DNA of 64,000 nt from Escherichia coli. GTDB lineage: Bacteria; Pseudomonadota; Gammaproteobacteria; Enterobacterales; Enterobacteriaceae. Below the pieces are notes generated by a model. It ran no database searches. It was not told the DNA's origin and was given only the letters and a program-made list of their open reading frames with translations. The stretch lies in NCBI RefSeq assembly GCF_030013205.1, contig NZ_CP122648.1. One strand, given 5' to 3'. This document shows, one piece after another, positions 1,933-36,589 of this stretch. The position numbers were made by a program, and so were the translations under genes. Within the stretch, counting starts at the first letter, position 1; every line of letters begins with the position of its first letter.

Positions 1933-1959
1933 ACAAAAAACGCGCCCGAAGGTGCGTTG
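1933..1959. repeat. attL copy of 27-bp direct repeat (acaaaaaacgcgcccgaaggTgcgttg)
   Basis: Identical to 36563..36589 apart from one mismatch (T vs C); lies next to the integrase gene and abuts the pheL -35 region. Confidence 0.65.
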
Positions 1960-2045
1960 TAAAACCCACTGAATTCAATGTTTTCCCTTTGTTTTCAGTG
2001 GGTTTTGTTATTGGTGGGGGTTACTGATTACCCTATAAAACCCAC

Positions 2046-3035
2046 TTATGTGGATGAAATGTGGATGCCTCCTTTTAATGGATTAAGTGAAATTGCATCC
2101 TGGAGGAAATCAGGAGCGAGGTGCGCATAGGTCATAGTTTGCTGGATCGTGGCGTGCCCCATAATTCGCTGGAGCGTAAGTATATTTCCTCCATTAATCA
2201 TAAAGTGAGCAGCAAAGGTATGGCGTAGAACATGTACAGCCTGTCCTTTTGGTAGGTCTGGCTTAACACTGCGAAGCACCTTGCGATATTCTTCATAATT
2301 GACGTCAAACAAAAGGCCGGATTTCTTTGTTTTGATCTCACTAACAACTTCATCAGAGACAGGAATAATTCGAACTTTTCCGTTTTTAGTTTTGTTAAAC
2401 GTCACGCGATTATTGATGATGTGTTCCGCGCGCAGATTTTTCGCTTCTCCCCATCTCGCCCCAGTACTGAGACAAAGTAGCGTAATCCGCCGAGCATCAC
2501 CGCTTACTGCATCCAGCAATTTGGCGATTTCTTCCGTAGTGAGGTACGTCATTTCGGGTGATTTTCGTTTCAAAGAGGGGAGGGCGCGGAGTGGATTTTC
2601 TCCGTGAAATTCTCCGGCATTTGCCAGGAGTGTAAACATTCCTCCGAGATCCGACTCATCACGCCGAACAGTAGACTCTTTTACTCCCAAGGATAAACGG
2701 GAGCTTCGATAAGCTGCCATGAAACGAGCATTAATCTGGCTAACCCTTGGATCATTCATTTCTTTGATGATTTTTTTCAATCTGGTTAGAACGCCGTTAG
2801 CATATGGCTTATTGCGTCCACCCAATTCCCACCATAACGGAAGCAGATCTGAGAGATGACGTTGCTCTGTTGGCTTTTCAAGCCATTCCTTATCGTGCAT
2901 GTGGCTGAGAACATAGCGCTCAAAGGCCACTGCATCTGCCTTTTTCTTAAAAATCCGCTGGATCCGACGTCCACTTCGGCCACGCGGTCTAACATCCACT
3001 TTATACCGTCCACCATCGAGTGCTTTAATTGCCAT
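2046..3035 (-). CDS. int: Phage integrase (tyrosine recombinase, P2 Int family)
   Basis: MAIKALDGGRYKVDVRPRGR... and C-terminal ...VLRHTFAAHFMINGGNILTLQRIMGHATIQQTMTYAHLAPDFLQDAISLNPL closely resemble P2 Int; start chosen at the Met with a GGAGGG RBS (the ORF could extend to 3068). Confidence 0.85.
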   Translation of the reverse strand: MAIKALDGGRYKVDVRPRGRSGRRIQRIFKKKADAVAFERYVLSHMHDKEWLEKPTEQRHLSDLLPLWWELGGRNKPYANGVLTRLKKIIKEMNDPRVSQINARFMAAYRSSRLSLGVKESTVRRDESDLGGMFTLLANAGEFHGENPLRALPSLKRKSPEMTYLTTEEIAKLLDAVSGDARRITLLCLSTGARWGEAKNLRAEHIINNRVTFNKTKNGKVRIIPVSDEVVSEIKTKKSGLLFDVNYEEYRKVLRSVKPDLPKGQAVHVLRHTFAAHFMINGGNILTLQRIMGHATIQQTMTYAHLAPDFLQDAISLNPLKGGIHISST

Positions 3036-3101
3036 TGGCAAGCCCTCCGGTGAAACGAGGAAAGACATTTCCAGTTTGTAAAACGTAAGAATAATAAAGG
3101 G

Positions 3102-3404
3102 TTAACCAATTTTCCTTTCGGATGGGGGTAAATCCGTTGGTTCTTGCCCATAGTGTGCGAGAGCCGGAGCTATCTGCCCGGATTCAGGCGCAATTTTTCC
3201 AGTCATAAACCACAACGCATATTTCTCAAATCTGGGGTTGTTTAGTATTTGCTCAATTACTTCAGCATTAGGGATAGTTTTACCGCTTTCATATCTCCAC
3301 AGAGCATCACGGTTTAAACCAAGCATTTTTGCTGTATCCGGGAGGCTAGTAAGTCTCTCGCTTTCACGCATGATTTTTATGCGCTCTCCAATAGTCATAC
3401 GCAT
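3102..3404 (-). CDS. P2 C-type immunity repressor
   Basis: ...YALWFMTGKIAPESGQIAPALAHYGQE matches the recalled P2 C repressor C-terminus; divergent from a cox-like gene; start uncertain (ORF extends to 3419). Confidence 0.7.
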   Translation of the reverse strand: MRMTIGERIKIMRESERLTSLPDTAKMLGLNRDALWRYESGKTIPNAEVIEQILNNPRFEKYALWFMTGKIAPESGQIAPALAHYGQEPTDLPPSERKIG

Positions 3405-3499
3405 GTTGCAATTCTCCAACGTCTGTATTAATGTTTATACAAATGAGTTTGATTTGGGGCATCCGTCGCAAGAAATACCCCAAACAGGGAGATTATCAC

Positions 3500-3826
3500 A
3501 TGAATGAAGAACTATTGAGGGCATTGTTTAAGATCCCGGACCCCATCACCGTCGATGAGTTTTCCCGCCGCACAGGTAAGACCGAATCAGCCGTAAGAAA
3601 GTTGGTAGAGCGTCGACTCATCCCTCTAACTACTGAGCGCGAGGTTTTAGGCGAGGAAGGGAGTTCGCGCCGTCTTCTCATCCTTTGGAATGAGTGGCTC
3701 GAAATGGTCTATGACGCAACGAAACAGCTTCCTCCTGAGCGTAAAGATTGGCGCAATCACTGGCTTAAGAAAGCCAAGAAGCTGGCGGAAGATTTGGGAT
3801 TAGGCTTCCTTAATTTTGCTGCATGA
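3500..3826 (+). CDS. Cox/excisionase-like early regulatory protein (putative)
   Basis: First gene of the rightward early operon, divergent from the repressor; positional call only, with no clear similarity to P2 Cox. Confidence 0.4.
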   Translation: MNEELLRALFKIPDPITVDEFSRRTGKTESAVRKLVERRLIPLTTEREVLGEEGSSRRLLILWNEWLEMVYDATKQLPPERKDWRNHWLKKAKKLAEDLGLGFLNFAA

Positions 3827-3844
3827 GATGCAGGGAGTTTTGAT

Positions 3845-4186
3845 ATGAAACAGCAACGTAATTCACGCTTTCGTAATGGTGCTGAACGCCACGCTAACCG
3901 TTTCGCTACCAGTGCATCACGCAGCAACATCCGCTACAGCCTGAGCGAAACACACGCAACGCCGGATGGCTACCCAGTAAAACAAATCGGCGAGCACGCC
4001 TGGTTGATTGAGAAAGCTGGAATCGTGGTCCACAAATGCCCACACAATCCGTTTACCGGAAACCGCATTTTTGCACTAAGCAGCGGCGACAATCAGTTCG
4101 GACAGGATTTCACATTGTACGAAGCACTTCGTACAGTTGATCGTCTGCTTCGCGGACAAAGTTTTATTAAACAGGCTGATTTATAA
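3845..4186 (+). CDS. Hypothetical early-operon protein
   Basis: 113-aa ORF in the early operon. Confidence 0.4.
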   Translation: MKQQRNSRFRNGAERHANRFATSASRSNIRYSLSETHATPDGYPVKQIGEHAWLIEKAGIVVHKCPHNPFTGNRIFALSSGDNQFGQDFTLYEALRTVDRLLRGQSFIKQADL

Positions 4187-4196
4187 CAGGTGCTTT

Positions 4197-4475
4197 ATGA
4201 CCAAAGAGCATGCACAAGGTGTATTTATCCGTTTTATTGATTTTCGCGGTGAACTGTTATTACGCGCATCGGCTATTGATGCTGTAGTTCCGGCAGAAAA
4301 AGATGTGGCCACTTACCTTTATCTGAACGGCACGCGATTGTTTGTGGAACTTCCGTACCAGACCGTACGCGAAATCATTAACGAAGCTGAAAAGGCACGT
4401 CAGGTTAATGGCGATGAACCATATATCGAAATTATCTGCATGGATTCAGAAACTGAAATTCAGAAAGCAGATTAA
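4197..4475 (+). CDS. Hypothetical early-operon protein
   Basis: ATG at 4197 within ORF 4137..4475; 92 aa. Confidence 0.4.
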   Translation: MTKEHAQGVFIRFIDFRGELLLRASAIDAVVPAEKDVATYLYLNGTRLFVELPYQTVREIINEAEKARQVNGDEPYIEIICMDSETEIQKAD

Positions 4476-4486
4476 AGGGCGTTGCG

Positions 4487-4729
4487 ATGGGCAAAGAATA
4501 TAAAACTCTCATTAACAAAGCACTTGAGCGTTTTTATTTTCGCTTAAGTGCATCAGGCGCTCATGCTGAACGTGCAGCCCGCGACTCATTGACCAGGGCA
4601 ATTCGGAGTCTGTATGACGTGGCTTTTTACGCTGATGATCTGGATGCACTTAACGAACTTTCCGAGCTGATCTGTGCCGCAGAATGCGGGGAACATATTG
4701 AACCGTATAAGCTGGGGAATATTGCATGA
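4487..4729 (+). CDS. Hypothetical early-operon protein
   Basis: 80-aa ORF, tightly spaced in the operon. Confidence 0.4.
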   Translation: MGKEYKTLINKALERFYFRLSASGAHAERAARDSLTRAIRSLYDVAFYADDLDALNELSELICAAECGEHIEPYKLGNIA

Positions 4730-4839
4730 GTATATTTATCTCATGGCTTGTTCTGATTATTTCGGTGGCCTGCGCCATTGGGATTATGCGAATTATTAAT
4801 TCAGTAAAAAAGATTGAACGCTTTTTCACTGGTGAATAA
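4726..4839 (+). CDS. Small hydrophobic protein (37 aa, putative)
   Basis: ATGA start/stop overlap with the upstream gene; MSIFISWLVLIISVACAIGIMRIINSVKKIERFFTGE looks like a single transmembrane helix; below the ORF-track cutoff. Confidence 0.3.
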   Translation: MSIFISWLVLIISVACAIGIMRIINSVKKIERFFTGE

Positions 4840-4925
4840 CAGCGCAAATAAAACCACAGGTTAAATAAGAAAATGTAAAAACAATCCGCATTCGCGGAGG
4901 TATTCGCACACGCCAAGGAGGCGCA

Positions 4926-5129
4926 ATGGCAATTAAGCATTTTCCCGTCGTTCGTTTCACTTCCAGAGGACGTGAATACGAGGTCGACGAACGCCTGATT
5001 ACCACAATCGACAAACACCGTTCAGAACAGGATGCACATCACATCTATCTCACTGACGGCACTTACTTCTGCGCCACGAATGTGGTGCGGGTGAACCTTA
5101 TCCGACAGGTACAGGAGTCACGCAGATGA
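4926..5129 (+). CDS. Hypothetical early-operon protein
   Basis: 67-aa ORF. Confidence 0.35.
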   Translation: MAIKHFPVVRFTSRGREYEVDERLITTIDKHRSEQDAHHIYLTDGTYFCATNVVRVNLIRQVQESRR

Positions 5130-5371
5130 CCATTCTGGACTACATCGCCGCCAATCCGGGTTGTAGCGGTGGAGAAATCGCCGCAGCACTGAATACCCCA
5201 ACCACAGCCATTAATGCGGAGTTACGCCGACTCTGGCGCAGCGGTTCAGTCATAAGAAAAGAGCGCAAAACAGGCGGTCGCTTTTCTTACCAGATAAACC
5301 CGATGCCGTTCGGGTGCGGCAATCCACTTACCAACATGTTTAACCAGCTACTGAAGGAAGCCAGAGCATGA
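5126..5371 (+). CDS. Small putative DNA-binding (winged-helix-like) protein
   Basis: 81-aa ORF overlapping the stop of the previous gene; basic, HTH-like segment. Confidence 0.4.
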   Translation: MTILDYIAANPGCSGGEIAAALNTPTTAINAELRRLWRSGSVIRKERKTGGRFSYQINPMPFGCGNPLTNMFNQLLKEARA

Positions 5372-5667
5372 GCGCCATCAACCACCAGGAATTACGCGAA
5401 CTGGCGACTGACCTGCAACGAATGGCAACGCCTCAAAAATTACTGGCGTTTCGCGCAATGCTCTCGCCGTCTGCTGTGCTGGCGCTGCTGGATGAGCTGG
5501 AGCACGCCAGAACCACACCTCTCGCCATTCGCCTGACGCTCCATCATGAAATCGCTGATTTCTGCGCGACATTGGAGGCGCCAGGCGAACCGGAAACGCC
5601 GGAAGCAATACAGCAAGAGCTGCTGCAACGCATTGACAAGGTTTTTGATTTTTTTCTGAACCACTAA
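5368..5667 (+). CDS. Hypothetical early-operon protein
   Basis: 99-aa ORF with overlapping stop/start. Confidence 0.4.
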   Translation: MSAINHQELRELATDLQRMATPQKLLAFRAMLSPSAVLALLDELEHARTTPLAIRLTLHHEIADFCATLEAPGEPETPEAIQQELLQRIDKVFDFFLNH

Positions 5668-5790
5668 GAAACCAGAACATGCACACACAAAAAAACCGCT
5701 TGCCATGCCGTAATCAGTCAGGTTACATTTCCGCTGCACCTCATAAAACGGGTGCCGGGATTCTCAACCCGATACAGAGCAAAGCGCATA

Positions 5791-5810
5791 ACCGCGCCAG
5801 CGGTTTTTTT
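5791..5810 (+). terminator. Putative intrinsic terminator inside the noncoding gap
   Basis: accgc-gcca-gcggt hairpin followed by a run of seven T. Confidence 0.35.
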
Positions 5811-5989
5811 GTGCGTACTGTATTGCCACGTCTTTTTCGCGTCAGAATTATGGCGGGGCGTACGGGGCCGACTTCGGTCGGGCCGGATTCTTTGCTCTCC
5901 GGTGTTGAGAACCCTGTACGTCTCGCCACCCCGAGATTCTCAACTCTGGATGGTGAGTTATTTCTATCACCGAGCAAAGAGGCCACACC

Positions 5990-6220
5990 ATGGCAAACCG
6001 CAAACAGCACCGCGCATACGCTGCGCGTCGTCACATCCAGACTGAAATCAACCGCAGACTTTCCCGCGCATTCCGCGTCGCTAAAATCATGCACATCAAT
6101 ATGCTGCATGAGCGTAGCTGCGAACTTTCAAACCTCTATTCATCCGCTGTTTTCAGCTATCTGGCGGATGATCTGCGCGAGCTTCAGCAGCTCTTCCAGC
6201 AGCAAAACAAACCCCATTAA
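5990..6220 (+). CDS. Hypothetical protein
   Basis: 76-aa ORF preceded by an AAGAGG RBS. Confidence 0.4.
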   Translation: MANRKQHRAYAARRHIQTEINRRLSRAFRVAKIMHINMLHERSCELSNLYSSAVFSYLADDLRELQQLFQQQNKPH

Positions 6221-6292
6221 TTCCTGTTCCGGGCCTTTCCTGCACCTTGCGGCGGGAGGCCTTCGCACATCTGTAGTAAAGAGAATTGCAGC

Positions 6293-6682
6293 ATGATTGA
6301 CGCTCATGACTTCACAAGATGGGTGCGCACACAGGACACCCGTCTGGCTCCCGTTCTTCAGGGATTATTTGATCTCTACATCCGTGGTCGTGACAACAGA
6401 GCACGCACCACAAAACCGGAGAATGCAGACACCCTTTATTTCACAGTAGACGACTGCTACCGCGTGGACTTCACACCACACGGGCTGGCGTTGCACTGCC
6501 TGACACCACACGGCGAATCACTACTGGCGTATTACGACTCCCCGGCCTCCGTATTTGCGGCAATGCTGGCGCATCGCACTGCTGGCGGGTGTGCCTCGCT
6601 GAGTGAATACACCGCTGAATTTGACCGCCTTTCCGCCATCTTCTCGCAGGAGTGGCAGCGCGTGACGGGATACCAGCCATGA
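6293..6682 (+). CDS. Hypothetical protein immediately upstream of gpA
   Basis: 129-aa ORF overlapping the gpA start. Confidence 0.4.
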   Translation: MIDAHDFTRWVRTQDTRLAPVLQGLFDLYIRGRDNRARTTKPENADTLYFTVDDCYRVDFTPHGLALHCLTPHGESLLAYYDSPASVFAAMLAHRTAGGCASLSEYTAEFDRLSAIFSQEWQRVTGYQP

Positions 6683-9504
6683 GTGAGTTTGCATGGAGCT
6701 GGAATGAACCACGACCAGCCATTGATCCGGCCAGATTTACGGAGCGCAGGCAGGAAACTGAAACCGACTTGCAACGCGCCATCCGTTACTACCTTGAGGC
6801 GGACAAAAAGGCCCGGGAAGAACAGGAAGCGAAGGAGGAAGCCTTTTTCGCACAATCCGCCATGGGTAAAAAACTCATGGCATCCCTTGAGGAAGCCGGA
6901 CAGCGTGAAAAGCTGGCACAGAGCATCATCAGTAAGCGCCGGGCAACAGAACAAGACCCAGTAGCCCGTGCCTTTGCCACACTAAAGGCACTACCTGTTT
7001 ATCTGCGTGAACCACTGAGCCGCCACCTCTCTTTCCTGCGCAAAAAACAGGAAGCCGATCGCCAGAAAGGCAAAAAGAGCTGGCAGGCGGAACGCTATGC
7101 ACGCGGAACCCTGCGCAAAATATTCGAACGTCTAGATCGCACTGACGGACGCTGGCTGACACCGGGTTATCGCTCCCTTGCCGGGCGCGAACGCCTGGAC
7201 GATTTGCTTTACCTGCCGCAGCTCAACAAGCACCAGATACAGACGCTGGCCACCATGACCGCGGCGATGTTCAGCAGCACCTTCGAAACACTCTGCGATG
7301 GCTTTGGTGCCAGAGATGGCGAGCTGACCATGGATGTAATGTTGAAGGCTTACCGGATGCTGGCTCGTATCGCATTACGCCTGCACATCATGCCGCCACA
7401 TTACGAAGCCCTGAACAAGAGCGAACCGGATACGGAACTGCTGCCGGGCGCAATCCTTCGCCTGACCTGTGCGGACTGGTGGAAACGCAAACTGTGGCTG
7501 TTACGTTGCGAGTGGAGAGAAGAACAACTCCGCGCCGCCTGTCTGGTTTCCAGAAAAACATCACCCTATCTGAGCCAGGACGCGTTAAGCGAGTTTCGCG
7601 CACAGCGCGAGAAAACACGCGATTTCCTGAAAAGTTTCATGCTGGAAAATGAAGACGGGTTCACGATTGATCTCGAGACGGTGTATTACGCGGGAGTAAG
7701 TAACCCGGTTCACCGTAAGGCAGAAATGATGGCCACCATGAAGGGACTGGAACTTCTGGCCGAAGCCCGTGGCGACAGAGCGGTGTTTCTGACTGTCACC
7801 TGCCCGTCAAAATACCACGCAACAACGGAGAACGGTCATCCGAATCCCAAATGGAACGGGGCCACCATGCGCGACTCCAGCGATTACCTGGTTAACACGT
7901 TTTTTGCGGCGGTCCGCAAGAAACTGAACCGCGACGGCCTGCGCTGGTATGGCATCCGCACGGTGGAGCCTCACCATGACGGCACCGTGCACTGGCATAT
8001 GATGGTCTTTGCCCATCCGGAAGAAATCGACACCATTGTGTCCCACACCCGCGATATTGCCATTCAGGAAGATCGTCACGAGCTGGGCGATGATATTACT
8101 CCGCGCTTTAAGGCGGAGTATGTAGACGGCTCAAAAGGCACGCCAACCAGCTACATCGCCACCTACATCGGAAAGAACCTGGACAGCCGCGCCGTGGATG
8201 GCATCGACCCGAAAACAGGCAAACCACGCGTTGACCACGAAACCGGAAAATCAATGGCCGAGAGCGTGGAGCGCGCCATCGGCTGGGCGCGCCTTCACCG
8301 GGTCCGCCAGTTCCAGTTCTTTGGCATCCCATCCCGTCAGGTGTGGCGTGAACTGCGCCGCCTTGCCAGCCAGATGGCACGCAACCCGGAAGGCCCGCAA
8401 CGGCTGAAGGATGACGCAATGGACGCGGTTCTTGCTGCCGCTGATGCCGGATGTTTTGCCACCTACATTGAGAAACAGGGCGGCGTACTTGTTCCACGCA
8501 AAGACTACCTGATTCGCACCGCCTACGACCTCGCAGATGAGCTGAACGATTACGGCGAACAGAGCGTACAGATTTACGGGATCTGGTCACCACTCATCGG
8601 GGAATCCTCCCGTGTGTGCACGCACCCGGATAACTGGAAGCTGGTAAGACGTAAACCGGAAGCGGAAGACAGCACCCGCGAAAATGGTTTTGACCTTCAG
8701 GGCGGCCCTGCCGCCCCTTGGACTCGTGGCAATAACTGTCCCCGTGTACAGGAAGCAGGCAACAGCGGGACAGAACTGTCGGAAGAGCAACCAACACCGT
8801 GGCCGCAGATCCCTGACGGCGTTGATGTGGATGAATGGATGCGCTCACTGAAACGGCACGAACGCCGGGCGCTGATGCGTTCGCTGCGTGACAAACAGGC
8901 AAAAAACAGCAGTGATGAAATGCAGAGCTGGACACAGAGCCGCAAACAGCAGCGGCCTTTGCCTGATAACCACGAATTACTCGCTAAAGAATGGCGGGAG
9001 TCTGCCGAATCTCTCGGCCTGCATATCGGTGAACAGCAGATGCAGCACCTGTTACGGGGCGGCAGCCTGTACGTTGACGGCAGCATCATTGCACCGCAGG
9101 GATTTGAAATTGTACGCAAACCGGATACCCGCCCGGACAGCCGAATCACGCAGCTCTGGCAGCGCCTGAGCCGTAATCATGGCGTAAGCAGCACGGAGAT
9201 CCGCCATAACCCGGTCGCCAGCTATCTGACACAGCTGGGGGCATCAGACCCTGAAGCCGCCGCACGCCTGGCATCCACACTTCAGCAGGACCAGAACACC
9301 ATGAAAACCCCCGTTACCGTGCTTTCTGACATGCTGCGCGCCATCCGTGACGCAGAGCACGCACAGAGAATCAGTGAAACAACTGAACGCGCCCGCCGCA
9401 AAGCAGACCTGCTGCGGGGTGGCCTGATCAGTGGAAACAAAAAACAGACAGAAACGGGATTCACAAATCCCGTAAATGAGCAAAAAACGTGCCGCGATGT
9501 ATGA
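6679..9504 (+). CDS. Replication initiation protein gpA (rolling-circle HUH endonuclease, P2 A family)
   Basis: 941-aa ORF starting MSEFAWSWNEP...; contains ...DGTVHWHMMVFAHPEE (HUH-type motif); position after the early operon as in P2. Confidence 0.8.
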   Translation: MSEFAWSWNEPRPAIDPARFTERRQETETDLQRAIRYYLEADKKAREEQEAKEEAFFAQSAMGKKLMASLEEAGQREKLAQSIISKRRATEQDPVARAFATLKALPVYLREPLSRHLSFLRKKQEADRQKGKKSWQAERYARGTLRKIFERLDRTDGRWLTPGYRSLAGRERLDDLLYLPQLNKHQIQTLATMTAAMFSSTFETLCDGFGARDGELTMDVMLKAYRMLARIALRLHIMPPHYEALNKSEPDTELLPGAILRLTCADWWKRKLWLLRCEWREEQLRAACLVSRKTSPYLSQDALSEFRAQREKTRDFLKSFMLENEDGFTIDLETVYYAGVSNPVHRKAEMMATMKGLELLAEARGDRAVFLTVTCPSKYHATTENGHPNPKWNGATMRDSSDYLVNTFFAAVRKKLNRDGLRWYGIRTVEPHHDGTVHWHMMVFAHPEEIDTIVSHTRDIAIQEDRHELGDDITPRFKAEYVDGSKGTPTSYIATYIGKNLDSRAVDGIDPKTGKPRVDHETGKSMAESVERAIGWARLHRVRQFQFFGIPSRQVWRELRRLASQMARNPEGPQRLKDDAMDAVLAAADAGCFATYIEKQGGVLVPRKDYLIRTAYDLADELNDYGEQSVQIYGIWSPLIGESSRVCTHPDNWKLVRRKPEAEDSTRENGFDLQGGPAAPWTRGNNCPRVQEAGNSGTELSEEQPTPWPQIPDGVDVDEWMRSLKRHERRALMRSLRDKQAKNSSDEMQSWTQSRKQQRPLPDNHELLAKEWRESAESLGLHIGEQQMQHLLRGGSLYVDGSIIAPQGFEIVRKPDTRPDSRITQLWQRLSRNHGVSSTEIRHNPVASYLTQLGASDPEAAARLASTLQQDQNTMKTPVTVLSDMLRAIRDAEHAQRISETTERARRKADLLRGGLISGNKKQTETGFTNPVNEQKTCRDV

Positions 9505-9552: not shown

Positions 9553-9580
9553 TTAATTAATCAACATAAGGAAAATCGAC

Positions 9581-10540: not shown

Positions 10541-10544
10541 ATCA

Positions 10545-28544: not shown

Positions 28545-28546
28545 CA

Positions 28547-29098
28547 ATGTTGCATTTAAAAAATATTACTGCAGGCCATCCGAAAACCGCAGAACAATAT
28601 CAGATGACAAAACAACATGGTATCACCTGGCTTTTTTCGGAAGATGACAAAAACTGGTATGAAGAGCTGAAAAATTTTGCCAGTGACACCATAAAAATGG
28701 TTTACACCGGAGACGGGCGCGTGGTGTGGGTCGGTAAGGATGTGACAGGCATTGAACCCCGTAACGCCAGTGTTATTGAAGTTCCTGATATTACCGCTAA
28801 CCGCCGTATTACCGTGCCTGGTTACTGGTTTTACCGCGACGATAAATTTGTCTTCGACTACAAACTTAAAGCGGAAGATGAGCGTGATGCCCTGTTACAA
28901 CAGGCCAGCATCATGACCAGCGAATGGGAAAAAGACCTGCTGCTGGGATTAATCAGTGACGAAGACAGGGAAAAACTGAAAGCATGCCGTATTTATGCAA
29001 AAGCACTACAGCAGATGACTTTCAGCCAGGTTACAGATAAAGCATCGTATGCCGCGATTGTATGGCCAGAATTACCGCAGAACATTAGCGAGAATTAA
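28547..29098 (+). CDS. Tail fibre assembly chaperone (P2 gpG-like)
   Basis: MLHLKNITAGHPKTAEQYQMTK...WYEELKNFASDTIKMVY... parallels the recalled P2 G N-terminus. Confidence 0.75.
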   Translation: MLHLKNITAGHPKTAEQYQMTKQHGITWLFSEDDKNWYEELKNFASDTIKMVYTGDGRVVWVGKDVTGIEPRNASVIEVPDITANRRITVPGYWFYRDDKFVFDYKLKAEDERDALLQQASIMTSEWEKDLLLGLISDEDREKLKACRIYAKALQQMTFSQVTDKASYAAIVWPELPQNISEN

Positions 29099-29104
29099 GA
29101 AGTA

Positions 29105-30397: not shown

Positions 30398-30969
30398 TGC
30401 AGATTAAAGATATTAAAAACCCTCGTTACCTGGAATCTGGCGCGATTGACTGCGAGGTGCTTTTGGAAGGGATGGATGAAGCCGTTCCCTACACAGCCAC
30501 GCCAGAAGACACAGCAACAACAGGCCAGAAAATTTGGCAGGAGCTGCAAAGCGGCAAATGGGGCGAAATCGCCCCGTTCACCGTCACGCCGGAACTTATC
30601 GCTGCGGCAAAAGATGCCAAAAAGCGGGAAATCGAGGCGTGGCGTACAGAACAGGAAGCACTGCCGTTCACGTTCGAATGGAACGGTCGCACCTGGAACG
30701 CTGGCCCCGACTCAATGGCCCGTCTTTATCCGGTAGTAATGGCGGCGAAATCTGACACGGCGCGGGACGTTATGGCGTGGGGTGACGTCGATAATCAACA
30801 GGTGAGACTGTCAATGCCGGAACTGGAAGAACTGGCGACAGCAATGGCGCAGGCACAGGTCGATCGCAATGACGAGATTTATCGCCGTCAGCGACAGATG
30901 AAGGACGTGCTGGATAGCCTTAATAATCTTGCCGACATCCGCGCTTTTCAGGCTGGAGAGTCAGAATGA
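30394..30969 (+). CDS. Second tail fibre assembly chaperone (putative)
   Basis: 191 aa directly downstream of fibre 2, overlapping its stop. Confidence 0.45.
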   Translation: MMQIKDIKNPRYLESGAIDCEVLLEGMDEAVPYTATPEDTATTGQKIWQELQSGKWGEIAPFTVTPELIAAAKDAKKREIEAWRTEQEALPFTFEWNGRTWNAGPDSMARLYPVVMAAKSDTARDVMAWGDVDNQQVRLSMPELEELATAMAQAQVDRNDEIYRRQRQMKDVLDSLNNLADIRAFQAGESE

Positions 30970-31679
30970 AATGGGAAAAGGCAATTCTGCGCCCGTCAGC
31001 CATGAACATTAAATGCTCTGTGGTTTGCCTTCATCCATGGTCAGAAAATACCGGAAACATCAAACCATCGGGGCGTTATCTCAGCCCCGAAAATGCTGTA
31101 TCTGCACTTTTACCCTATCTGAAAGAAAGCACAGAAAAAGACATTGTGGCGCTGTTGTTTTGCGCTCCTTCTGCTGGCGAGTTTTTATCACTCACCAGAC
31201 AATTTTCATGTGCATTTCCGTTGCCAGAGGTGGGACGAATGTCCCGCATGATATCCAGTCAGCTTTCGCTGGCCATCAGCAAAATGCAAATCCCCGCCAG
31301 ACCGGTAACAGCACTTCCGGAACCAATAACGCTGTCGACACAGACCACTCGCAGCATGTCACTGGCGGCAACCATTGCGCAGGCAGCCACTCCTGCCGCC
31401 ATATCACCGGAAACACTGTCATCATCACTGCGCCAGTTCATGAATGCGAGAGATAAAGCACTACAGGAAATCGCCGATCAGCAGGCCGCGCTCCGGCAGA
31501 AATTTTGCCCGGTGTGGCGTTTTTGCTGCAAAGGAGCCCTGAGCCAGGCCGCCGCGCTGATACAAAAAAACATTCCACACCCGGAGTGGGTTTTTACAGC
31601 TGTGATGCTGTTCGTCGGCGATGATCTCTCATCACTAAGGGAAGCACTACATGACCCAGATGATTGTCCTTGCGCTTGA
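30966..31679 (+). CDS. Hypothetical cysteine-rich protein
   Basis: 237-aa ORF with no recognisable structural-protein motif. Confidence 0.4.
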   Translation: MKWEKAILRPSAMNIKCSVVCLHPWSENTGNIKPSGRYLSPENAVSALLPYLKESTEKDIVALLFCAPSAGEFLSLTRQFSCAFPLPEVGRMSRMISSQLSLAISKMQIPARPVTALPEPITLSTQTTRSMSLAATIAQAATPAAISPETLSSSLRQFMNARDKALQEIADQQAALRQKFCPVWRFCCKGALSQAAALIQKNIPHPEWVFTAVMLFVGDDLSSLREALHDPDDCPCA

Positions 31680-32226
31680 CGGGGAAGCCATTCTGCTGCG
31701 CAACATCACCGTCAGCGCCACCATGCAACTACCGGACAAAGATATGTCCGGACAGTCAACCAGCACCACGAGCGCCCAGCAGGGAAACAAGGCTAAAGAG
31801 CTGCGCGTTTCGGGGGTTATTGATTTTAACGATGAAGCCATTCTGACCCGTATTTTTCAGCTTGCGGAAGCAACAGAAAGCAACGGCGCTAAAAAAACAT
31901 ATCGCATTGCTAACGCTACCGCGAAGGCAATCAATATGCGACAGGGGATATTTTCTGGTGGCATTGATGCCACGGAACAACAGGGAAAAATGCACTGGCA
32001 GGTCACCTTTACTCTCAGGGAAAAATTAAGCGTGCCAGAGAAAGCATCAGCACGTAGCGGTTCACAAAAAACCATCGCCAGACAGCAGACCCAGAATGGC
32101 AGCGAACAGGCACCAGACAAAGGCATGAATACGCAAAGTTCGTTCTGGAAAAAAATCAATGATGCCGTTGGCTCTGGTCTGGATGCTGTTGGCATCGGGA
32201 GCGTGAAAGAGGAAGGGAAAACATGA
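31651..32226 (+). CDS. Hypothetical protein
   Basis: 191-aa ORF between the fibre module and the spike gene. Confidence 0.4.
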   Translation: MTQMIVLALDGEAILLRNITVSATMQLPDKDMSGQSTSTTSAQQGNKAKELRVSGVIDFNDEAILTRIFQLAEATESNGAKKTYRIANATAKAINMRQGIFSGGIDATEQQGKMHWQVTFTLREKLSVPEKASARSGSQKTIARQQTQNGSEQAPDKGMNTQSSFWKKINDAVGSGLDAVGIGSVKEEGKT

Positions 32227-33920
32227 AATTGATACAACGCTGCATGATTAATGGCGAACGGGTGGAAATTGCCGATATAAGCCTTGTTCTTACCCTGAAT
32301 GCTGCCGGTCGTGGCTTCATTTCTGTTAACAATCTGTCATCCGAACACAGCCTTGCCGGCGCAATGGTACAAATTGATCTCGGTCGTGACGGTGAAGCAT
32401 GGCGCTATTTCTCCGGCTATATTGAGCGCGATCAACCTGCTGAAAATGGCTCACGTCGCCTTTTTATTCGTGAAGCGGCTGCTGTGCTGGATTTTGATTT
32501 CCCCTGCTCCATGCAACACCCGACGTTGCGGGAGGTACTCGATAATCTGGGGCGACAAAGCGGTATCGTTTTTATCACTCCGGATGCGGATTATGCCAGT
32601 ATACCAACTCCCTACATCACCCACAGCGGCAGCGGAGCACAACTGCTCAGCCAGCTGGGGCGAGCATTCAGTATCAACGATTACGTCTGGCACCCTATGC
32701 CGGACGGTTCTGTATTTGTGGGAAGTGCAGCTGATTCACGATTTGCCAGCATTACAATGCCGGATATTCCGCAACAGTACACACTCGGGCAAAGCGGCGG
32801 AAACAGCATCGACATCATGTTTATGGAAACTGTGCGACCGGGCGTGAACCTTCCGGCCGGGCGCATTACCCGTGTAGCCCTCAACAACGAGAAAATGACC
32901 CTGACATGGGAGCGCCTTACCGCCACGGGCAGCCCTGTCTCCAAATCACCATTACGCAGACAGATGGAAACACAGTTCCCGGAACTGGCCAGCGGCACAC
33001 TACACACCAGGCTGGCGCGCGTCATTGCACCAACGGAATCCGCCACCCTGGGCGATGTGGCCGACAGCTTCCGTCCACGCTACGCCGTGGACGTGCAACT
33101 GCTCGATGAGGACGGCAACGATAAAAGCGATACGCCTGTTTACCCGGCAGTCCCACTCCCCGTCCCGATGGCTGGTAGCGAGGCGGGATGTTTTGCCTAC
33201 CCGCCGGCAGGCACCATCGTGGAAATATCTAACATTGAAGGGCGCCCGGATAAACCTGTTATCAGGCAAATCTTACCTGCTGGCCATAACCTGCCTGATG
33301 TAAAGCCCGGCGAACAACTGCAGCAACAGCGCGCAGAAGTGTTTCAGCGCGTCACGACTGACGGAAGCTGGCACAGAGAAACAGACCAGCAAATCAGGGA
33401 GCAGTCAGCCACCCGCACAATTAACAGTGATGCAGAAGAGCGCACCACAACAACCAGAACAACCACAGTACGGGCAAACGACATAACCAGTGTTCTGGGA
33501 ACCAGCAAGCTGGCGGCAGGACAAATAGAGCACCTTACTACCGGCCATTACGCGATCGCAGCCAGCGAGCATATCCAGATGGTAGCGCAGGATTTGCTGA
33601 CTAAACTCAAAGGGGCAATATCCACAATTGAGCAGGACCTGACTGAAAACGTGGGAGGCCGCAGAACATGCCGGGCGGACGGCGGTCTGAAGTTTACAGC
33701 CCCGACAGTATTTATTGGTCGCGGTGGCTCACGGGAAAAATCCGAACTTAATCTGCTGACGTTGTTGATTGATATTCTGGATCTGATTCAATTGCTGGCC
33801 ACGCACACAGCAAACCACACCCACAGCAACACTGGCGCACCAATGAACAGCGGCGAACTTGCCGCAGATGCCCTGCAGGCTACGAGCCTGCGCGAAAAAT
33901 ACGGCGACCTTATCGCCTGA
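32223..33920 (+). CDS. Baseplate hub/central spike protein (putative)
   Basis: 565 aa; C-terminal ...LIDILDLIQLLATHTANHTHSNTG... carries HxH repeats like the metal-binding apex of phage central spikes. Confidence 0.45.
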   Translation: MKLIQRCMINGERVEIADISLVLTLNAAGRGFISVNNLSSEHSLAGAMVQIDLGRDGEAWRYFSGYIERDQPAENGSRRLFIREAAAVLDFDFPCSMQHPTLREVLDNLGRQSGIVFITPDADYASIPTPYITHSGSGAQLLSQLGRAFSINDYVWHPMPDGSVFVGSAADSRFASITMPDIPQQYTLGQSGGNSIDIMFMETVRPGVNLPAGRITRVALNNEKMTLTWERLTATGSPVSKSPLRRQMETQFPELASGTLHTRLARVIAPTESATLGDVADSFRPRYAVDVQLLDEDGNDKSDTPVYPAVPLPVPMAGSEAGCFAYPPAGTIVEISNIEGRPDKPVIRQILPAGHNLPDVKPGEQLQQQRAEVFQRVTTDGSWHRETDQQIREQSATRTINSDAEERTTTTRTTTVRANDITSVLGTSKLAAGQIEHLTTGHYAIAASEHIQMVAQDLLTKLKGAISTIEQDLTENVGGRRTCRADGGLKFTAPTVFIGRGGSREKSELNLLTLLIDILDLIQLLATHTANHTHSNTGAPMNSGELAADALQATSLREKYGDLIA

Positions 33921-33958
33921 GCTCCCGACATAAAACCCACATAAACGCCCCATCAAAC

Positions 33959-33985
33959 AACGCACGGTTCCGACCGTGCGTTTTT
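33959..33985 (+). terminator. Intrinsic terminator after the tail operon
   Basis: aacgcacggttccgaccgtgcgtttttc hairpin plus T-run. Confidence 0.6.
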
Positions 33986-34749
33986 CATATCCACCACCTG
34001 ATTAATGCGTTCTGCGTGCCATTCCGGCGCTGTATGCACACACCGCGTAAACGGTGTGACGTAAAGTGTGAGGTGACGTAAACCGCGCTACCCCCTCCAA
34101 CCCGCGGGTTTTGTGTCGAAACAGTTTTTCAGTTTTCTGCCGTGCAAAACTGACCGCCAGCCCGCGCAGCAACTGAGGAAAAAGCGAAGATCTGAAATTT
34201 CACGCTTTGAAATTTTTTGCAGTTTTCAGAGGGATTTTTACGATCTCATGAATGGCAGGAGAAAGAAAACAGGCTGATATTAAAAGAGTTTTCATACTTT
34301 ACGTGGGACAAGACGCGATCGCGAAAGGATCGCATCAAAAAATCTTCAAACAACGAAGCCAGACGCGGCGCGGCCTGCGTAAGATTGAGAGTCAAAATTA
34401 AACTGAAAAAAGGATCAATACCGCGCCTCGATCGCACATGACGATCTACGCAGCAACAGGACAAAAAAACCGGCGCGAACGCCGGCGGAAGCATGTATCA
34501 AATGCGTGACTGAATAATGTCTACGGTCGGGAATTTTATATCAAAAGGCTGACAGGCCTCAACGGATTGAAACAAGGGAAAAAACCAGGCTAGAATTCGC
34601 GCGGGTGCCTTTCGGCTGATGGTCGGAGGGAATACCCGAAGGCCGGATGTGGAAAGGCCCCGGAAAACATTTCTGTTTAACCGAGGCCCTAACATATCTA
34701 CCTTAAGCAAGTGATAGGTTAGCGCCTCTCCAACAAAGGAGCAAGCGCT

Positions 34750-34890
34750 ATGTCGCAAAAATCGCTTACGGCCATCACGTTCTGCGTGACGGTAATCCTC
34801 ATCATCTGGATGCTGCACGGCTCGCTGTGTGAAATACGGATGAGCTTCTGGGGAGCGGAGTTTGCGGCGTTCTTACAGTGTAAACAGTAA
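34750..34890 (+). CDS. Hok/Gef-family type I toxin (46 aa)
   Basis: MSQKSLTAITFCVTVILIIWMLHGSLCEIRMSFWGAEFAAFLQCKQ carries the Hok/Gef SLCEIR...AAF signature; long structured leader upstream; below the ORF-track cutoff. Confidence 0.65.
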   Translation: MSQKSLTAITFCVTVILIIWMLHGSLCEIRMSFWGAEFAAFLQCKQ

Positions 34891-35025
34891 GGAAACCGCG
34901 ACGGGGGAGCAATCCCCCGTCAATCGGTTGCCAGGGTATGGTCGAAGTGGCACCCAAATTTAAATTGAGGCCCACCAGTAAGAGTGGTGGGCTTAACGCT
35001 TATTTAAATTTGAAAGGAACTCTTT

Positions 35026-35322
35026 ATGAGTGAAATGGTATTTTGTCGCGGATGCGGCAAGGAAATACATAAAGATGCCACATCCTGCCCCAATTGTGGA
35101 GCACCTCAAAGAACAGCAAGTTCAAAAAGCAGAATGACAGCCGCACTACTGGCTTTCTTTTTAGGTGGTCTTGGAGCACACAAATTTTATTTAGGTAAAG
35201 TGGGGCAAGGATTCCTTTACCTTATTTTTTGCTGGACATTCATTCCGGCAATCGTGGCATTTATTGAGTTTTTTATCTATCTATGCACCTCTGATGAAGA
35301 CTTTGCCCGCAAATATGGCTAA
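35026..35322 (+). CDS. Zinc-ribbon plus TM2-domain membrane protein
   Basis: CRGCGKEIHKDATSCPNCGAP zinc ribbon followed by LLAFFLGGLGAHKFYLGKVGQGFLYL; AT-rich. Confidence 0.6.
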   Translation: MSEMVFCRGCGKEIHKDATSCPNCGAPQRTASSKSRMTAALLAFFLGGLGAHKFYLGKVGQGFLYLIFCWTFIPAIVAFIEFFIYLCTSDEDFARKYG

Positions 35323-35347
35323 TGCCTAGTGGGCGAATCAGAATGAC

Positions 35348-35382
35348 AAACCCGCAGCGTAAAAACTGCGGGTTTTCTTTTT
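35348..35382 (+). terminator. Intrinsic terminator after the TM2-domain gene
   Basis: aaacccgcagcgtaaaaactgcgggttttcttttt. Confidence 0.6.
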
Positions 35383-35429
35383 GCTACCCTCACAAATGAG
35401 GACACCATACATAAGCAATAGGCATAACA

Positions 35430-35464
35430 GATCGATGCAATAAATCCGATCGATAAAAACGATC
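35430..35464. promoter_or_regulatory. Cluster of three GATCGAT (Dam GATC) sites upstream of the com-like gene
   Basis: GATC at 35430-35433, 35448-35451 and 35461-35464, about 50-80 bp upstream of the com-like start. Confidence 0.4.
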
Positions 35465-35511
35465 GATTTGTTATCATATCGGCAGCAGTAACCACACAAG
35501 AGGTGCCGCAA

Positions 35512-35709
35512 ATGACGCAAAATGTACGATGCAAAAATTGCAACAAACTACTTGCCCGCGCCTCATTTCACTACATTGAAATAAAATGTCCGCGCTGCAA
35601 AACACTTAACCAGATAACGAGAGCCATCGAGCACCCCACACACATGAGGAGTTATGACCGTGGGGATCGCAATCCAGCACCAACCAGCACATATACCGGA
35701 ACACACTAA
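35512..35709 (+). CDS. com: Com-like zinc-finger translational regulator (phage Mu Com family, putative)
   Basis: MTQNVRCKNCNKLLARASFHYIEIKCPRCKTLNQITRAIEHPT vs recalled Mu Com MKSIRCKNCNKLLFKADSFDHIEIRCPRCK...CEHPT; AAGAGGTG RBS; overlaps the 5' end of the methyltransferase ORF. Confidence 0.6.
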   Translation: MTQNVRCKNCNKLLARASFHYIEIKCPRCKTLNQITRAIEHPTHMRSYDRGDRNPAPTSTYTGTH

Positions 35710-36460
35710 GGTTTATCAGACTGACAATGCCACGCTCTGTCGTGGGAATGCGCTGGAAATATTGCCGCTGATTGAGCCAGAAAGCATTGATGCCTTAATC
35801 ACTGACCCGCCTTACAGTTCGGGTGCGACACACAAGGCCGGACGCACCAACCAGGGCAGCCATGCAAAATATCTGAACGGCGAGAACCTTCACCGCTTTG
35901 ATGGGTTCGCTGGTGAAAACATGGACGCCCGTTCGTGGGCTTACTGGACACAATTATGGATGGCACAGGCACACCGTGCAGTCAGGCCGGGCGGTTATGC
36001 CCTGGTATTTACTGACTGGCGACAACTACCAGCTTTAACCGATGCGTTTCAGGCCAGTGGCTTTACATGGCGCGGCATCATTGCGTGGAACAAGGGGAGG
36101 GGGTCACGAACACCCCATACGGGGTATTTCAGGCATCAGTGCGAATACATCGTCTGGGGCAGCAAAGGCCATTTAGATAAATCGCCTTCGGGGCCGTTCG
36201 ACGGTTGCATGACGTACCCGGTTATCCCGTCAAAGAAAATGCACCCGACCGGAAAACCAGAAGAACTAATGGCGGAACTGGTCAGGACTGTGAATAGTGG
36301 CGGAACAGTCCTTGATCCTTTTATGGGGTCAGGGACAACGGGTGTGGCTGCACTGAAAGCAGGGCGAAAATTTATTGGTATAGAAACCAGTGATCATTAT
36401 TTTGAGGTAGCAGCGCAGCGGCTTCGAGAGACTATTACCACAACCATTTCGGCTACATAA
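35654..36460 (+). CDS. DNA amino-methyltransferase (N6-adenine or N4-cytosine; DPPY motif before the AdoMet motif)
   Basis: ...IDALITDPPYSSG... and ...VLDPFMGSGTTGVAALKAGRKFIGIE...; start lies inside the com-like ORF (ATG 35654, or GTG 35660). Confidence 0.8.
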   Translation: MTVGIAIQHQPAHIPEHTKVYQTDNATLCRGNALEILPLIEPESIDALITDPPYSSGATHKAGRTNQGSHAKYLNGENLHRFDGFAGENMDARSWAYWTQLWMAQAHRAVRPGGYALVFTDWRQLPALTDAFQASGFTWRGIIAWNKGRGSRTPHTGYFRHQCEYIVWGSKGHLDKSPSGPFDGCMTYPVIPSKKMHPTGKPEELMAELVRTVNSGGTVLDPFMGSGTTGVAALKAGRKFIGIETSDHYFEVAAQRLRETITTTISAT

Positions 36461-36562
36461 GACAAAGCCCACATTTTTTTGCGGGCTTGTATATCATTAC
36501 TGATGTGGACAGTTTGTGGATGTTTATAAGAAATAAGCTAATAGAAACAATTCGTTAGCTTT

Positions 36563-36589
36563 ACAAAAAACGCGCCCGAAGGCGCGTTG
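36563..36589. repeat. attR copy of the 27-bp direct repeat; doubles as the raiA intrinsic terminator
   Basis: acaaaaaacgcgcccgaaggcgcgttg; hairpin aacgcgcc-cgaa-ggcgcgtt plus T-run on the raiA strand. Confidence 0.65.

What the first reader, a model, noticed from the sequence alone, without database searches (positions are those of the whole stretch)
1933..36589. Mosaic P2-like prophage inserted in the raiA terminator, with a 27-bp duplicated core
A 27-bp sequence (acaaaaaacgcgcccgaaggYgcgttg) occurs at both ends of the island; the right copy is the raiA terminator hairpin itself. In K-12 the raiA terminator runs straight into the pheL promoter (recalled), so about 34.6 kb is inserted here. 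The left copy differs by one base (T for C), consistent with being the phage-derived arm. The insertion puts phage DNA directly upstream of the pheL -35 hexamer and renews the raiA terminator.
Basis: partly seen in the sequence, partly recalled or inferred. Interest (0 to 1): 0.45.

Follow-up and report, generated by a model that had tools for sequence, protein, structure and literature searches.

The report
P2-family prophage in raiA terminator
A complete 34.6-kb P2-family prophage sits between the E. coli genes pheL and raiA, inserted by its own integrase into the raiA terminator hairpin so that both host genes stay intact; this is ordinary temperate-phage biology, correctly read by the first stage.

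Summary
The 27-mer occurs exactly twice, at 1933-1959 (T at position 21) and 36563-36589 (C). Joining the two host flanks through one 27-mer gives a sequence found uninterrupted in 5273 of 5426 complete E. coli genomes.

The 34,630-bp insert is a complete P2-family (Peduoviridae) prophage:
- It has a tyrosine integrase next to attL and two P2-type arm repeats (TGTGGA) on each side of the core.
- It is a true mosaic. Both ends (about 9 kb on the left, about 2 kb on the right) match P88-like prophages at the same site at 96-98% nucleotide identity.
- The central 23.9 kb (ogr, head, lysis, tail) is an HP1/ESSI-2-type module, under 60% amino-acid identity to any deposited phage.

The T is phage-derived. 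All 8 chromosomal attL copies inspected carry T, all 4 attR copies carry C, and empty sites carry C. A relative inserted at a secondary site in a P1-like plasmid places the crossover within GAAGG, core positions 16-20, around the terminator loop.

The same site with the same C/T difference was already reported in passing in Salmonella Reading, and it is occupied in two Citrobacter genomes. Verdict: correct but ordinary, a new member of a known kind. No excised attP junction was found in any collection searched.

The parts
1933..1959 (.). attL core (27 bp, T at position 21). Its left part is host-derived and its right part, from position 21, is phage-derived.
36563..36589 (-). attR core, which is also the intact raiA intrinsic terminator (8-bp stem, UUCG loop, U6). 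It is identical to the empty-site sequence.
1928..1933 (-). TTGACA, the candidate pheL/pheA -35 hexamer. It overlaps the core by one base. A candidate -10 TACTGT lies at 1904-1909.
   Evidence: read from the sequence; the promoter assignment is from memory and was not tested
1754..1879 (-). Phe leader with pheL (CDS 1831-1878), intact.
1961..2006 (-). 13-bp perfect inverted repeat (AAAACCCACTGAA / TTCAGTGGGTTTT) in the P' arm, downstream of int. Possibly the int terminator.
2048..2066 (+). P' arm-type integrase sites: two direct ATGTGGAT repeats 11 bp apart.
   Evidence: P2-type consensus tgTGGaCa from PMC3448106
36503..36521 (+). P arm-type integrase sites: ATGTGGAC and TTGTGGAT, 11 bp apart, in the same orientation as the P' pair.
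2046..3035 (-). Tyrosine integrase (329 aa).
   Evidence: the nearest deposited phage integrase is 64% identical
3102..3404 (-). C-type immunity repressor (helix-turn-helix).
3500..3826 (+). Cox-like first early gene, divergent from C.
   Evidence: weak, E 2e-4; the allele in RM10740 is annotated as Cox family
3845..10704 (+). P88-like early and replication region. It includes the gpA-type replication endonuclease (6679-9504), ParM (9581-10540) and the start of the ParR-like gene (10545-10859), in which the left mosaic breakpoint lies.
10705..34578 (.). Swapped-in 23.9-kb module. It holds two small genes (10874-11532), ogr (11601-11858, minus), portal (11924-12958, minus), large terminase (12951-14738, minus), scaffold/capsid/small terminase/head completion (14933-18178), tail terminator, neck, sheath and tube (18188-20999), holin and endolysin (21003-21750), chaperones and tape measure (21821-24470), baseplate and two tail-fibre sets (24460-33920), and an 0.66-kb non-coding tail.
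34579..36562 (+). P88-like right end: hok/gef (34750-34890), TM2-domain protein (35026-35322), com (35512-35709), DNA methyltransferase (35654-36460) and the P arm.
36612..36953 (-). raiA, intact (113 aa).

Best explanation
The interval is an integrated, apparently complete temperate phage of the P2 family (Peduoviridae). Its P2-type tyrosine integrase recombined the phage attP with a bacterial attB that is the raiA terminator hairpin.

Inferred: the two stem arms of the hairpin (AACGCGCC and GGCGCGTT) act as the inverted core-type integrase sites.

Shown by a natural secondary-site insertion of a relative: strand exchange takes place around the loop, within GAAGG, core positions 16-20.

Because attP carries nearly the whole 27-bp sequence, integration rebuilds it at both ends. 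As a result raiA keeps its native terminator at attR. pheL keeps its -35 hexamer and 26 of the 27 bases upstream of it at attL.

The one difference, T in attP against C in attB at position 21, lies right of the crossover. It therefore always ends up in attL.

The phage is a recombinant. It has a P88-like integration, immunity, replication and partition region, and a P88-like hok-TM2-com-methylase right end. Its late module is HP1/ESSI-2-type and brought its own ogr activator.
For: **Site and empty junction**
- The 27-mer occurs twice and never in shuffles.
- The empty junction is uninterrupted in 5273 of 5426 genomes, with a single C copy in K-12 and O139.

**Integrase and att architecture**
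- The integrase lies directly inside attL.
- Two TGTGGA direct repeats 11 bp apart lie in each arm. [quoted passage not shown]

**Population data**
- The integrase gene and the adjoining repressor region (window 1960-3420) are in 124 of 5426 genomes, and the core-P' junction is in 123.
- In all 7 other chromosomal cases inspected the integrase sits beside pheL.
- All 8 chromosomal attL copies inspected carry T, all 4 attR copies carry C, and empty sites carry C.

**Crossover position**
- A P88-like relative is inserted in the tail-fibre gene of the P1-like plasmid pCREC455-3.
- Its attL reads ...CTCCA(A)GAAGG-TGCGTTG-P' and its attR reads P-ACAAAAAACGCGCCCGAAGG-AGCATTG...
- The uninterrupted gene (...CTCCAGAAGGAGCATTG...) is present in 18 related plasmids.

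**Completeness**
- Every module is present and none is flagged as a pseudogene.

**Recent mobility**
- Strain RM10740 carries the same prophage, with about 6 differences over 30 kb.
- Its host flanks differ at 4-22 sites per kb.

**Mosaic structure**
-.

**Same site in other genera**
- Salmonella Reading (PMC10830755) and two Citrobacter genomes.
Against: - No excised attP junction was found in IMG/VR, in JGI metagenomes or in complete E. coli genomes. Excision and the attP sequence are therefore inferred, not observed.
- The crossover was mapped from one natural event, in a canonical P88-like relative rather than the hybrid in the window. That record has an extra A exactly at its circular join, which may be an assembly artefact.
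- No P2-type 19-nt cos site and no P2 late-promoter box (TGT-N12-ACA) was found in the late control region. Packaging and late control of the hybrid are unverified.
- The match to Cox is weak (E 2e-4).
- No strict IHF consensus was found in the arms.
Confidence: 0.9

Rival explanations
1. The element is a defective, immobile prophage remnant. It keeps its att repeats but can no longer excise or form particles, and it is inherited only vertically.
For: - No attP junction was found in any collection.
- No recognisable P2-type cos or late-promoter boxes were found.
- No spanin genes are annotated next to the holin and endolysin.
- A hybrid of early and late modules from different lineages could be mismatched.
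Against: - The full gene set is present with no pseudogene flags, and the families are confirmed.
- ogr travelled together with the late module.
- RM10740 has a nearly identical prophage (about 0.02% divergence), while its host flanks diverge by about 1-2%. This points to recent horizontal transfer.
- Between 26 and 38 genomes carry most of this hybrid.
Confidence: 0.08
2. The 27-bp repeat is a target-site duplication, or a product of homologous recombination by another kind of mobile element. It would then not be the core of an integrase-mediated att recombination.
For: Direct repeats at island ends can also arise from transposition. No integration experiment exists for this element.
Against: - 27 bp is far longer than transposon duplications.
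- The two copies differ at one fixed position, and the segregation is the same in every lysogen.
- P2-type arm sites and an adjacent tyrosine integrase are present.
- At the plasmid secondary site only GAAGG is shared and nothing is duplicated, as expected for site-specific exchange.
Confidence: 0.01
3. The element can also live as a plasmid (a phage-plasmid), since it carries ParM and a ParR-like gene. The integrated state would then be only one of two lifestyles.
For: ParM and a ParR-like gene lie next to the replication endonuclease. The pair is conserved in P88-like relatives.
Against: - Nearly all copies in complete genomes are chromosomal (128 of 129 places, 124 of 125).
- The single plasmid-borne copy is itself integrated in a P1-like plasmid and is not free.
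- No circular attP form was found.
Confidence: 0.05

Closest known systems
Coliphage P2 integration system (P2-type Int, 27-nt core, arm-type direct repeats; Nilsson and Haggard-Ljungquist 2011, PMC3448106)
   Same: - A tyrosine integrase lies next to attP.
- It is followed by a C repressor and a divergent cox-like gene.
- Two direct arm repeats matching tgTGGaCa lie on each side of the core.
- Integration is between genes rather than in a tRNA gene.
- The core length is similar to that of P2 (the 27-nt figure for P2 is from memory).
   Different: - The core sequence and the attB differ: here attB is the raiA terminator.
- The integrase is only distantly related to deposited phage integrases. 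The best is 64% (Klebsiella phage 3LV2017) and the P88-type integrases reach about 57%.
- No strict IHF consensus was seen in the arms.
Escherichia phage P88 and relatives (Xuanwuvirus, Peduoviridae), and the canonical P88-like prophages at pheL-raiA in strains D72, 2013C-3181 and 2014EL-1346-6
   Same: - The early and replication region is about 94% identical to P88 over about 6.9 kb.
- Both ends are 96-98% identical to the canonical prophages at the same site.
- The ParM/ParR, hok, TM2, com and methylase accessory genes are the same.
   Different: - The entire late region (23.9 kb) is replaced, with no nucleotide-level homology.
- ogr sits next to the portal gene instead of at the right end.
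- The tail genes run in one direction and are not the P2/P88 V-W-J-I-H-G / FI-FII-E-T-U-D set.
HP1 / phiO18P / Cronobacter phage ESSI-2 group of Peduoviridae
   Same: The late module is of this type. Capsid and sheath (DUF2586) find ESSI-2, Salmonella SW3/SI7 and Yersinia vB_YenM_324 as best hits, followed by phiO18P and HP1/HP2.
   Different: Amino-acid identity is only 56-59% to the nearest deposited phage. The lysogeny and replication region comes from another lineage.
About 28-kb phage-like element with xerC between yfiA (raiA) and pheA in Salmonella Reading (PMC10830755)
   Same: The same intergenic site is used. The flanking imperfect repeat is AAAACGCGCCCGAAGG(C/T)GCG, with a single C copy in isolates that lack the element.
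   Different: The host genus differs and the element is smaller. It was reported only as a gene-content difference. Its integrase and gene content were not compared here.

Membership tests
Peduoviridae (P2-like phages, family sense) | Head gene cluster with portal and large terminase on one strand, divergent from scaffold (GPO), P2-family major capsid (GPN), small terminase (gpM) and head completion (gpL) | tested here: met
   - Gene order and strands.
- NCBIfam major_capsid_P2 scores 277 bits against a cutoff of 220, and the portal scores 230 bits against a cutoff of 166.
- PHROGs identify large terminase, scaffold, small terminase and head-tail adaptor.
Peduoviridae (P2-like phages, family sense) | gpA-type rolling-circle replication endonuclease and Ogr/Delta zinc-finger late activator | tested here: met
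   - phrog_91 'nicking at origin of replication', E 2e-276.
- phrog_603 transcriptional regulator, E 3e-29.
- PGAP names them replication endonuclease and ogr/Delta-like zinc finger.
Peduoviridae (P2-like phages, family sense) | Contractile tail (sheath, tube, tape measure, baseplate J) | tested here: met
   PHROGs identify tail sheath (E 7e-149), tail protein/tube, baseplate wedge and baseplate protein. The type is HP1/ESSI-2, not P2 FI/FII.
P2-type integrase/att system | Tyrosine recombinase adjacent to the attachment site | tested here: met
   phrog_1 integrase, E 4e-70. The C-terminal catalytic region matches Xer and integron tyrosine recombinase models. The gene ends 87 bp from the core.
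P2-type integrase/att system | At least two direct arm repeats of consensus tgTGGaCa on each side of the core | tested here: met
   ATGTGGAT occurs twice at 2048-2066. ATGTGGAC and TTGTGGAT lie at 36503-36521. Spacing is 11 bp and all are in the same orientation. Consensus from PMC3448106.
P2-type integrase/att system | Core shared by attL and attR and present once at the empty attB | tested here: met
   The two copies share 26 of 27 bases. The empty site has a single copy in 5273 genomes.
P2-type integrase/att system | Integrase-dependent integration and Cox-dependent excision | not testable with these tools
   This needs an experiment. Indirect support comes from the natural secondary-site insertion and from recent horizontal spread.
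Genus Xuanwuvirus (P88-like) | Nucleotide similarity across most of the genome to P88 (genus-level criterion of about 70%, from memory) | tested here: not met
   The best phage hits cover only 36-40% of the first 17 kb and 2-8% of the second 17.5 kb.
Intrinsic terminator of raiA (the attB) | G+C-rich hairpin followed by a U tract just downstream of the stop codon | tested here: met
   The terminator scan hit at 36588-36569 has 8 pairs, 6 of them G-C, a loop of 4 and a TTTTTTGT tail. The fold is -14.4 kcal/mol. Termination itself was not measured.

The most novel reading that the evidence does not exclude
The single C-to-T difference in the phage core may be selected rather than neutral. It is kept in elements at this site in E. 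coli, Citrobacter and Salmonella. In E. coli and Citrobacter the integrases are only 58-69% identical and the P' arms differ. The T breaks one G-C pair of the terminator hairpin. It could therefore tune integrase binding at the phage-side core site. Alternatively it could weaken the duplicated terminator at attL, so that transcription leaving int reaches the pheL-pheA promoter region and links lysogeny to phenylalanine biosynthesis.
Probability: 0.1. Interest if true: 0.4.

Novelty: new member of a known kind. Interest (0 to 1): 0.22.

Why it matters
**Practical value**
- The work defines an attachment site: a 27-bp core in the raiA terminator, with the crossover within GAAGG and P2-type arm sites.
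- About 2.3% of complete E. coli genomes use this site, and it is also occupied in Salmonella and Citrobacter.
- It is a clean example of a phage using the dyad symmetry of a terminator as its integrase core site while leaving both neighbouring genes intact.

**Phage diversity**
- The prophage documents a recent exchange of a whole late region between two Peduoviridae lineages.
- The late module, under 60% identical to any deposited phage, appears to be spreading among pig-associated E. coli.

None of this changes current understanding of temperate phages.

Tried and rejected
- **Excised attP junction.** I searched for P arm-core-P' arm in IMG/VR, in JGI metagenomes and, with a 530-bp reconstructed attP, in all complete E. 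coli genomes. None was found, so there is no direct in-silico evidence of excision.
- **P2-type cos.** The 19-nt cos GGCGAGGCGGGGAAAGCAC with up to 3 mismatches was absent.
- **P2 late-promoter box.** TGT-N12-ACA had 19 hits against 14 expected, and none lay in the divergent late control region at 14739-14932. The palindrome found there does not recur elsewhere.
- **IHF consensus.** The strict pattern WATCAANNNNTTR had no match anywhere in the window.
- **Defence systems.** PADLOC on the genes in the usual P2 cargo positions found nothing except the methyltransferase. A Cas6 hit at E 0.003 was treated as noise.
- **Literature.** Searches for raiA/yfiA + pheL + prophage/integrase found nothing relevant. 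Only a search for the core sequence string found the Salmonella Reading paper.
- **C at attL.** I considered that the 33 attL junctions at 98.5% identity might carry C. All four that I inspected carry T, with the mismatch elsewhere in the P' arm.
- **Plasmid copy as misassembly.** I rejected this because both junctions are reciprocal hybrids inside one tail-fibre gene, and that gene is uninterrupted in 18 related plasmids.
Full report
**1. The observation**

The 27-mer ACAAAAAACGCGCCCGAAGGYGCGTTG occurs exactly twice in the 64-kb window, even with two mismatches allowed. The copies are at 1933-1959 (T at position 21) and 36563-36589 (C). None appeared in 100 shuffles.

The window is 100% identical to the chromosome of E. 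coli ETEC4079, a Belgian pig isolate (NZ_CP122643.1). Left of the first copy lie tyrA, pheA and the Phe leader with pheL. Right of the second copy lie raiA, bamD and rluD.

I built the predicted empty junction from the left flank, one 27-mer and the right flank.
- It matches over its full length in 5273 of 5426 complete E. coli genomes.
- K-12 and an O139:H1 strain carry the C version once, between the same flanks.
- The insertion is therefore real, and it is 34,630 bp long.

**2. The right copy is the raiA terminator**

- On the minus strand the right copy starts 22 nt after the raiA stop codon.
- It folds as an 8-bp G+C-rich stem with a UUCG loop followed by UUUUUUGU, at -14.4 kcal/mol.
- The terminator scan also picks it up.
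- It is identical in all 27 positions to the empty site.
- The left copy has an A.C mismatch in that stem. It folds less well (-9.9 kcal/mol) and the terminator scan does not call it.

**3. The pheL promoter side**

- On the minus strand TTGACA occupies 1928-1933, so it overlaps the core by one base.
- A possible -10 (TACTGT) follows after 18 bp. This is read from the sequence.
- Assigning these hexamers to the pheL promoter rests on memory and was not tested.
- Phage-specific DNA begins at 1960, which is 27 bp upstream of the hexamer and not directly against it.
- The 27 bp in between are host-like except for the T.

**4. What the insert is**

The RefSeq annotation and my family searches give a complete temperate myovirus of the P2 family.

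| Module | Coordinates | Notes |
|---|---|---|
| Integrase | 2046-3035, minus | |
| C-type repressor | 3102-3404, minus | |
| Cox-like gene | 3500-3826 | divergent from C |
| gpA-type replication endonuclease | 6679-9504 | |
| ParM and ParR-like gene | 9581-10859 | |
| ogr | 11601-11858, minus | |
| Portal and large terminase | 11924-14738, minus | |
| Scaffold, capsid, small terminase, head completion | 14933-18178 | capsid is P2-family, NCBIfam 277 bits against a cutoff of 220 |
| Tail terminator, neck, sheath, tube | 18188-20999 | |
| Holin and endolysin | 21003-21750 | |
| Chaperones, tape measure | 21821-24470 | |
| Baseplate and two tail-fibre sets | 24460-33920 | |
| hok/gef, TM2 protein, com, DNA methyltransferase | 34750-36460 | |

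No gene is flagged as a pseudogene.

**5. It is a true mosaic**

The same integrase occurs in other genomes at the same site: strains D72, 2013C-3181 and 2014EL-1346-6. There the prophage is a canonical P88-like/P2-like phage, with the V-W-J-I-H-G and FI-FII-E-T-U-D tail genes and ogr at the right end.
- The window is 96-98% identical to these prophages only in the parts of the prophage left of 10704 and right of 34579.
- The 23.9 kb in between shares no nucleotide homology with them.

Against deposited phages the picture is as follows.
- The early region matches P88 and relatives at about 94% over about 6.9 kb.
- The late region has no near match.
- At protein level, capsid and sheath are closest to Cronobacter phage ESSI-2, Salmonella SW3/SI7 and Yersinia vB_YenM_324 at 56-59%, then to phiO18P and HP1/HP2.
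- The integrase is at most 64% identical to any deposited phage integrase.

The late activator gene ogr lies inside the swapped segment, so the activator came in together with the late genes.

**6. The attachment machinery**

- Each arm carries two direct TGTGGA repeats 11 bp apart, all in the same orientation.
- In the P' arm these are ATGTGGAT twice at 2048-2066. In the P arm they are ATGTGGAC and TTGTGGAT at 36503-36521.
- The same paper notes that P2-type integrases usually integrate between genes (PMC3448106).

**7. How common it is, and where the T comes from**

- The integrase gene and the adjoining repressor region (window 1960-3420) are present in 124 of 5426 genomes. The junction of the core's right part with the P' arm is present in 123.
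- This accounts for most of the roughly 150 genomes that lack an uninterrupted junction.
- In all 7 other chromosomal lysogens inspected, the integrase lies beside pheL.
- All 8 chromosomal attL copies inspected, the window's included, carry T.
- All four attR copies inspected carry C. Empty sites carry C.
- 91 records match the 65-nt attL probe perfectly. The four one-mismatch cases I checked differ elsewhere in the arm.

**8. A natural experiment that maps the crossover**

One copy of the element is on a 129-kb plasmid, pCREC455-3, of strain 455. That strain also has a chromosomal copy. On the plasmid a canonical P88-like relative interrupts a tail-fibre gene of a P1-like plasmid.

| Site | Sequence |
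|---|---|
| plasmid attL | ...CAGCTCCA(A)GAAGG TGCGTTG + P' arm |
| plasmid attR | P arm + ACAAAAAACGCGCCC GAAGG AGCATTG ACTCTGG... |
| uninterrupted gene, 18 related plasmids | ...CAGCTCCAGAAGGAGCATTGACTCTGG... |

- Only GAAGG is shared between phage and target around the exchange point.
- Position 15 and position 21 each follow their own side.
- Exchange therefore occurred within core positions 16-20, which span the terminator loop and the first two bases of the right stem arm.
- The attP core must carry T at position 21, because the plasmid has A there.
- The extra A lies exactly at the circular join of the record and may be an assembly artefact.

This explains the constant pattern of T in attL and C in attR. 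The T lies right of the crossover and travels with the P' arm. I infer, without a test, that the two stem arms serve as the inverted core-type integrase sites.

**9. Evidence of recent mobility**

- RM10740, a Californian feral-pig isolate, carries the same hybrid prophage, with about 6 differences over 30 kb.
- Its host flanks differ at 4-22 sites per kb.
- Its C/cox immunity segment is a different allele, with 122 differences in 1 kb.
- This pattern fits recent horizontal transfer followed by further module exchange, not vertical inheritance of a dead remnant.

**10. Other genera and prior knowledge**

- Searching the literature for the core string found one paper. In Salmonella Reading, an element of about 28 kb with xerC lies between yfiA (raiA) and pheA. 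It is flanked by AAAACGCGCCCGAAGG(C/T)GCG, and isolates lacking it have a single C copy (PMC10830755).
- A scan of one genome per species for the T version found two Citrobacter genomes with pheA, pheL, the core with T, and then an integrase 58% and 69% identical to the one here. P2-type arm repeats lie next to that integrase.
- The site and its C/T asymmetry are therefore shared by a family of integrases across enterobacteria, and had already been seen in passing.

**11. What remains unshown**

- No excised attP junction was found in IMG/VR, in metagenomes or in complete E. coli genomes.
- No P2-type cos site or late-promoter box was recognised.
- Excision, packaging and the effect on raiA and pheA expression all need experiments.

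**12. Verdict**

The biology is ordinary for a P2-type temperate phage. The new points are modest:
- a defined att site with a mapped crossover;
- a recombinant prophage whose late module has no close sequenced relative.

I rate it a new member of a known kind, with low interest.

Noticed in passing
window 5736-5933 (+): Rfam finds an isrK Hfq-binding RNA (5736-5810, 62.8 bits) and a C4 antisense RNA (5846-5933, 78.5 bits). Both lie inside the ORF that PGAP calls 'ash family protein' (5679-6296). This suggests a P1/P7-type c4 antisense control module in the early region of this P2-family prophage.
   Followed up: no
window 9581-10859 (+): A ParM actin-like segregation ATPase and a ParR-like partner sit just after the replication endonuclease of an integrated prophage. 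The pair is conserved in the P88-like relatives. Its role in a phage that integrates is unclear. The left mosaic breakpoint falls inside the ParR-like gene.
   Followed up: partly
NZ_CP183151.1 (pCREC455-3), loci L007 and L012; empty site in L013 and L014: A P88-like relative with the same integrase is inserted in a tail-fibre gene of a P1-like phage-plasmid, in a strain that also has the chromosomal copy. It is a phage within a phage-plasmid, at a secondary site that shares only GAAGG and scattered bases with the core.
   Followed up: yes
window 14825-14848: A perfect palindrome, TTCGGATAT-ATGCGC-ATATCCGAA, lies in the divergent control region between large terminase and scaffold. P2 would have Ogr boxes there. 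The palindrome does not recur elsewhere in the prophage.
   Followed up: partly
window 35512-36460 (+): A Com-family zinc-finger gene overlaps the start of a DNA methyltransferase gene. The layout resembles com-mom of phage Mu, and it sits at the right end next to the P arm.
   Followed up: no
window about 3200-3900, compared with L021 (RM10740): The otherwise nearly identical prophage in RM10740 has a different C repressor and cox segment, with 122 differences within 1 kb. This is an immunity swap on top of the late-module swap.
   Followed up: partly
window 33921-34750: About 0.8 kb has no annotated gene between the last baseplate gene and hok. It contains several hairpins (for example 34469-34486) and the right mosaic breakpoint at 34579. 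It is a candidate location for cos or for hok regulatory RNA. No Rfam family matched at the gathering threshold.
   Followed up: no
L004, L005 and L006 (prophages at the same site in other strains): Between the ParR-like gene and the portal gene the canonical relatives carry variable cargo. One has an HTH plus PIN-domain pair. Two have an AAA ATPase plus S8 peptidase pair. The window has instead a small unknown gene and an Rrf2-like regulator, with no PADLOC hit.
   Followed up: partly
window 39815-39953 (+) and 44578-44653 (+): The RyfD sRNA (Rfam 125 bits) and a tRNA-Glu gene lie downstream of clpB. In the collinear RM10740 locus this tRNA-Glu lies in the spacer of an rRNA operon. These are ordinary host features outside the finding.
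   Followed up: no
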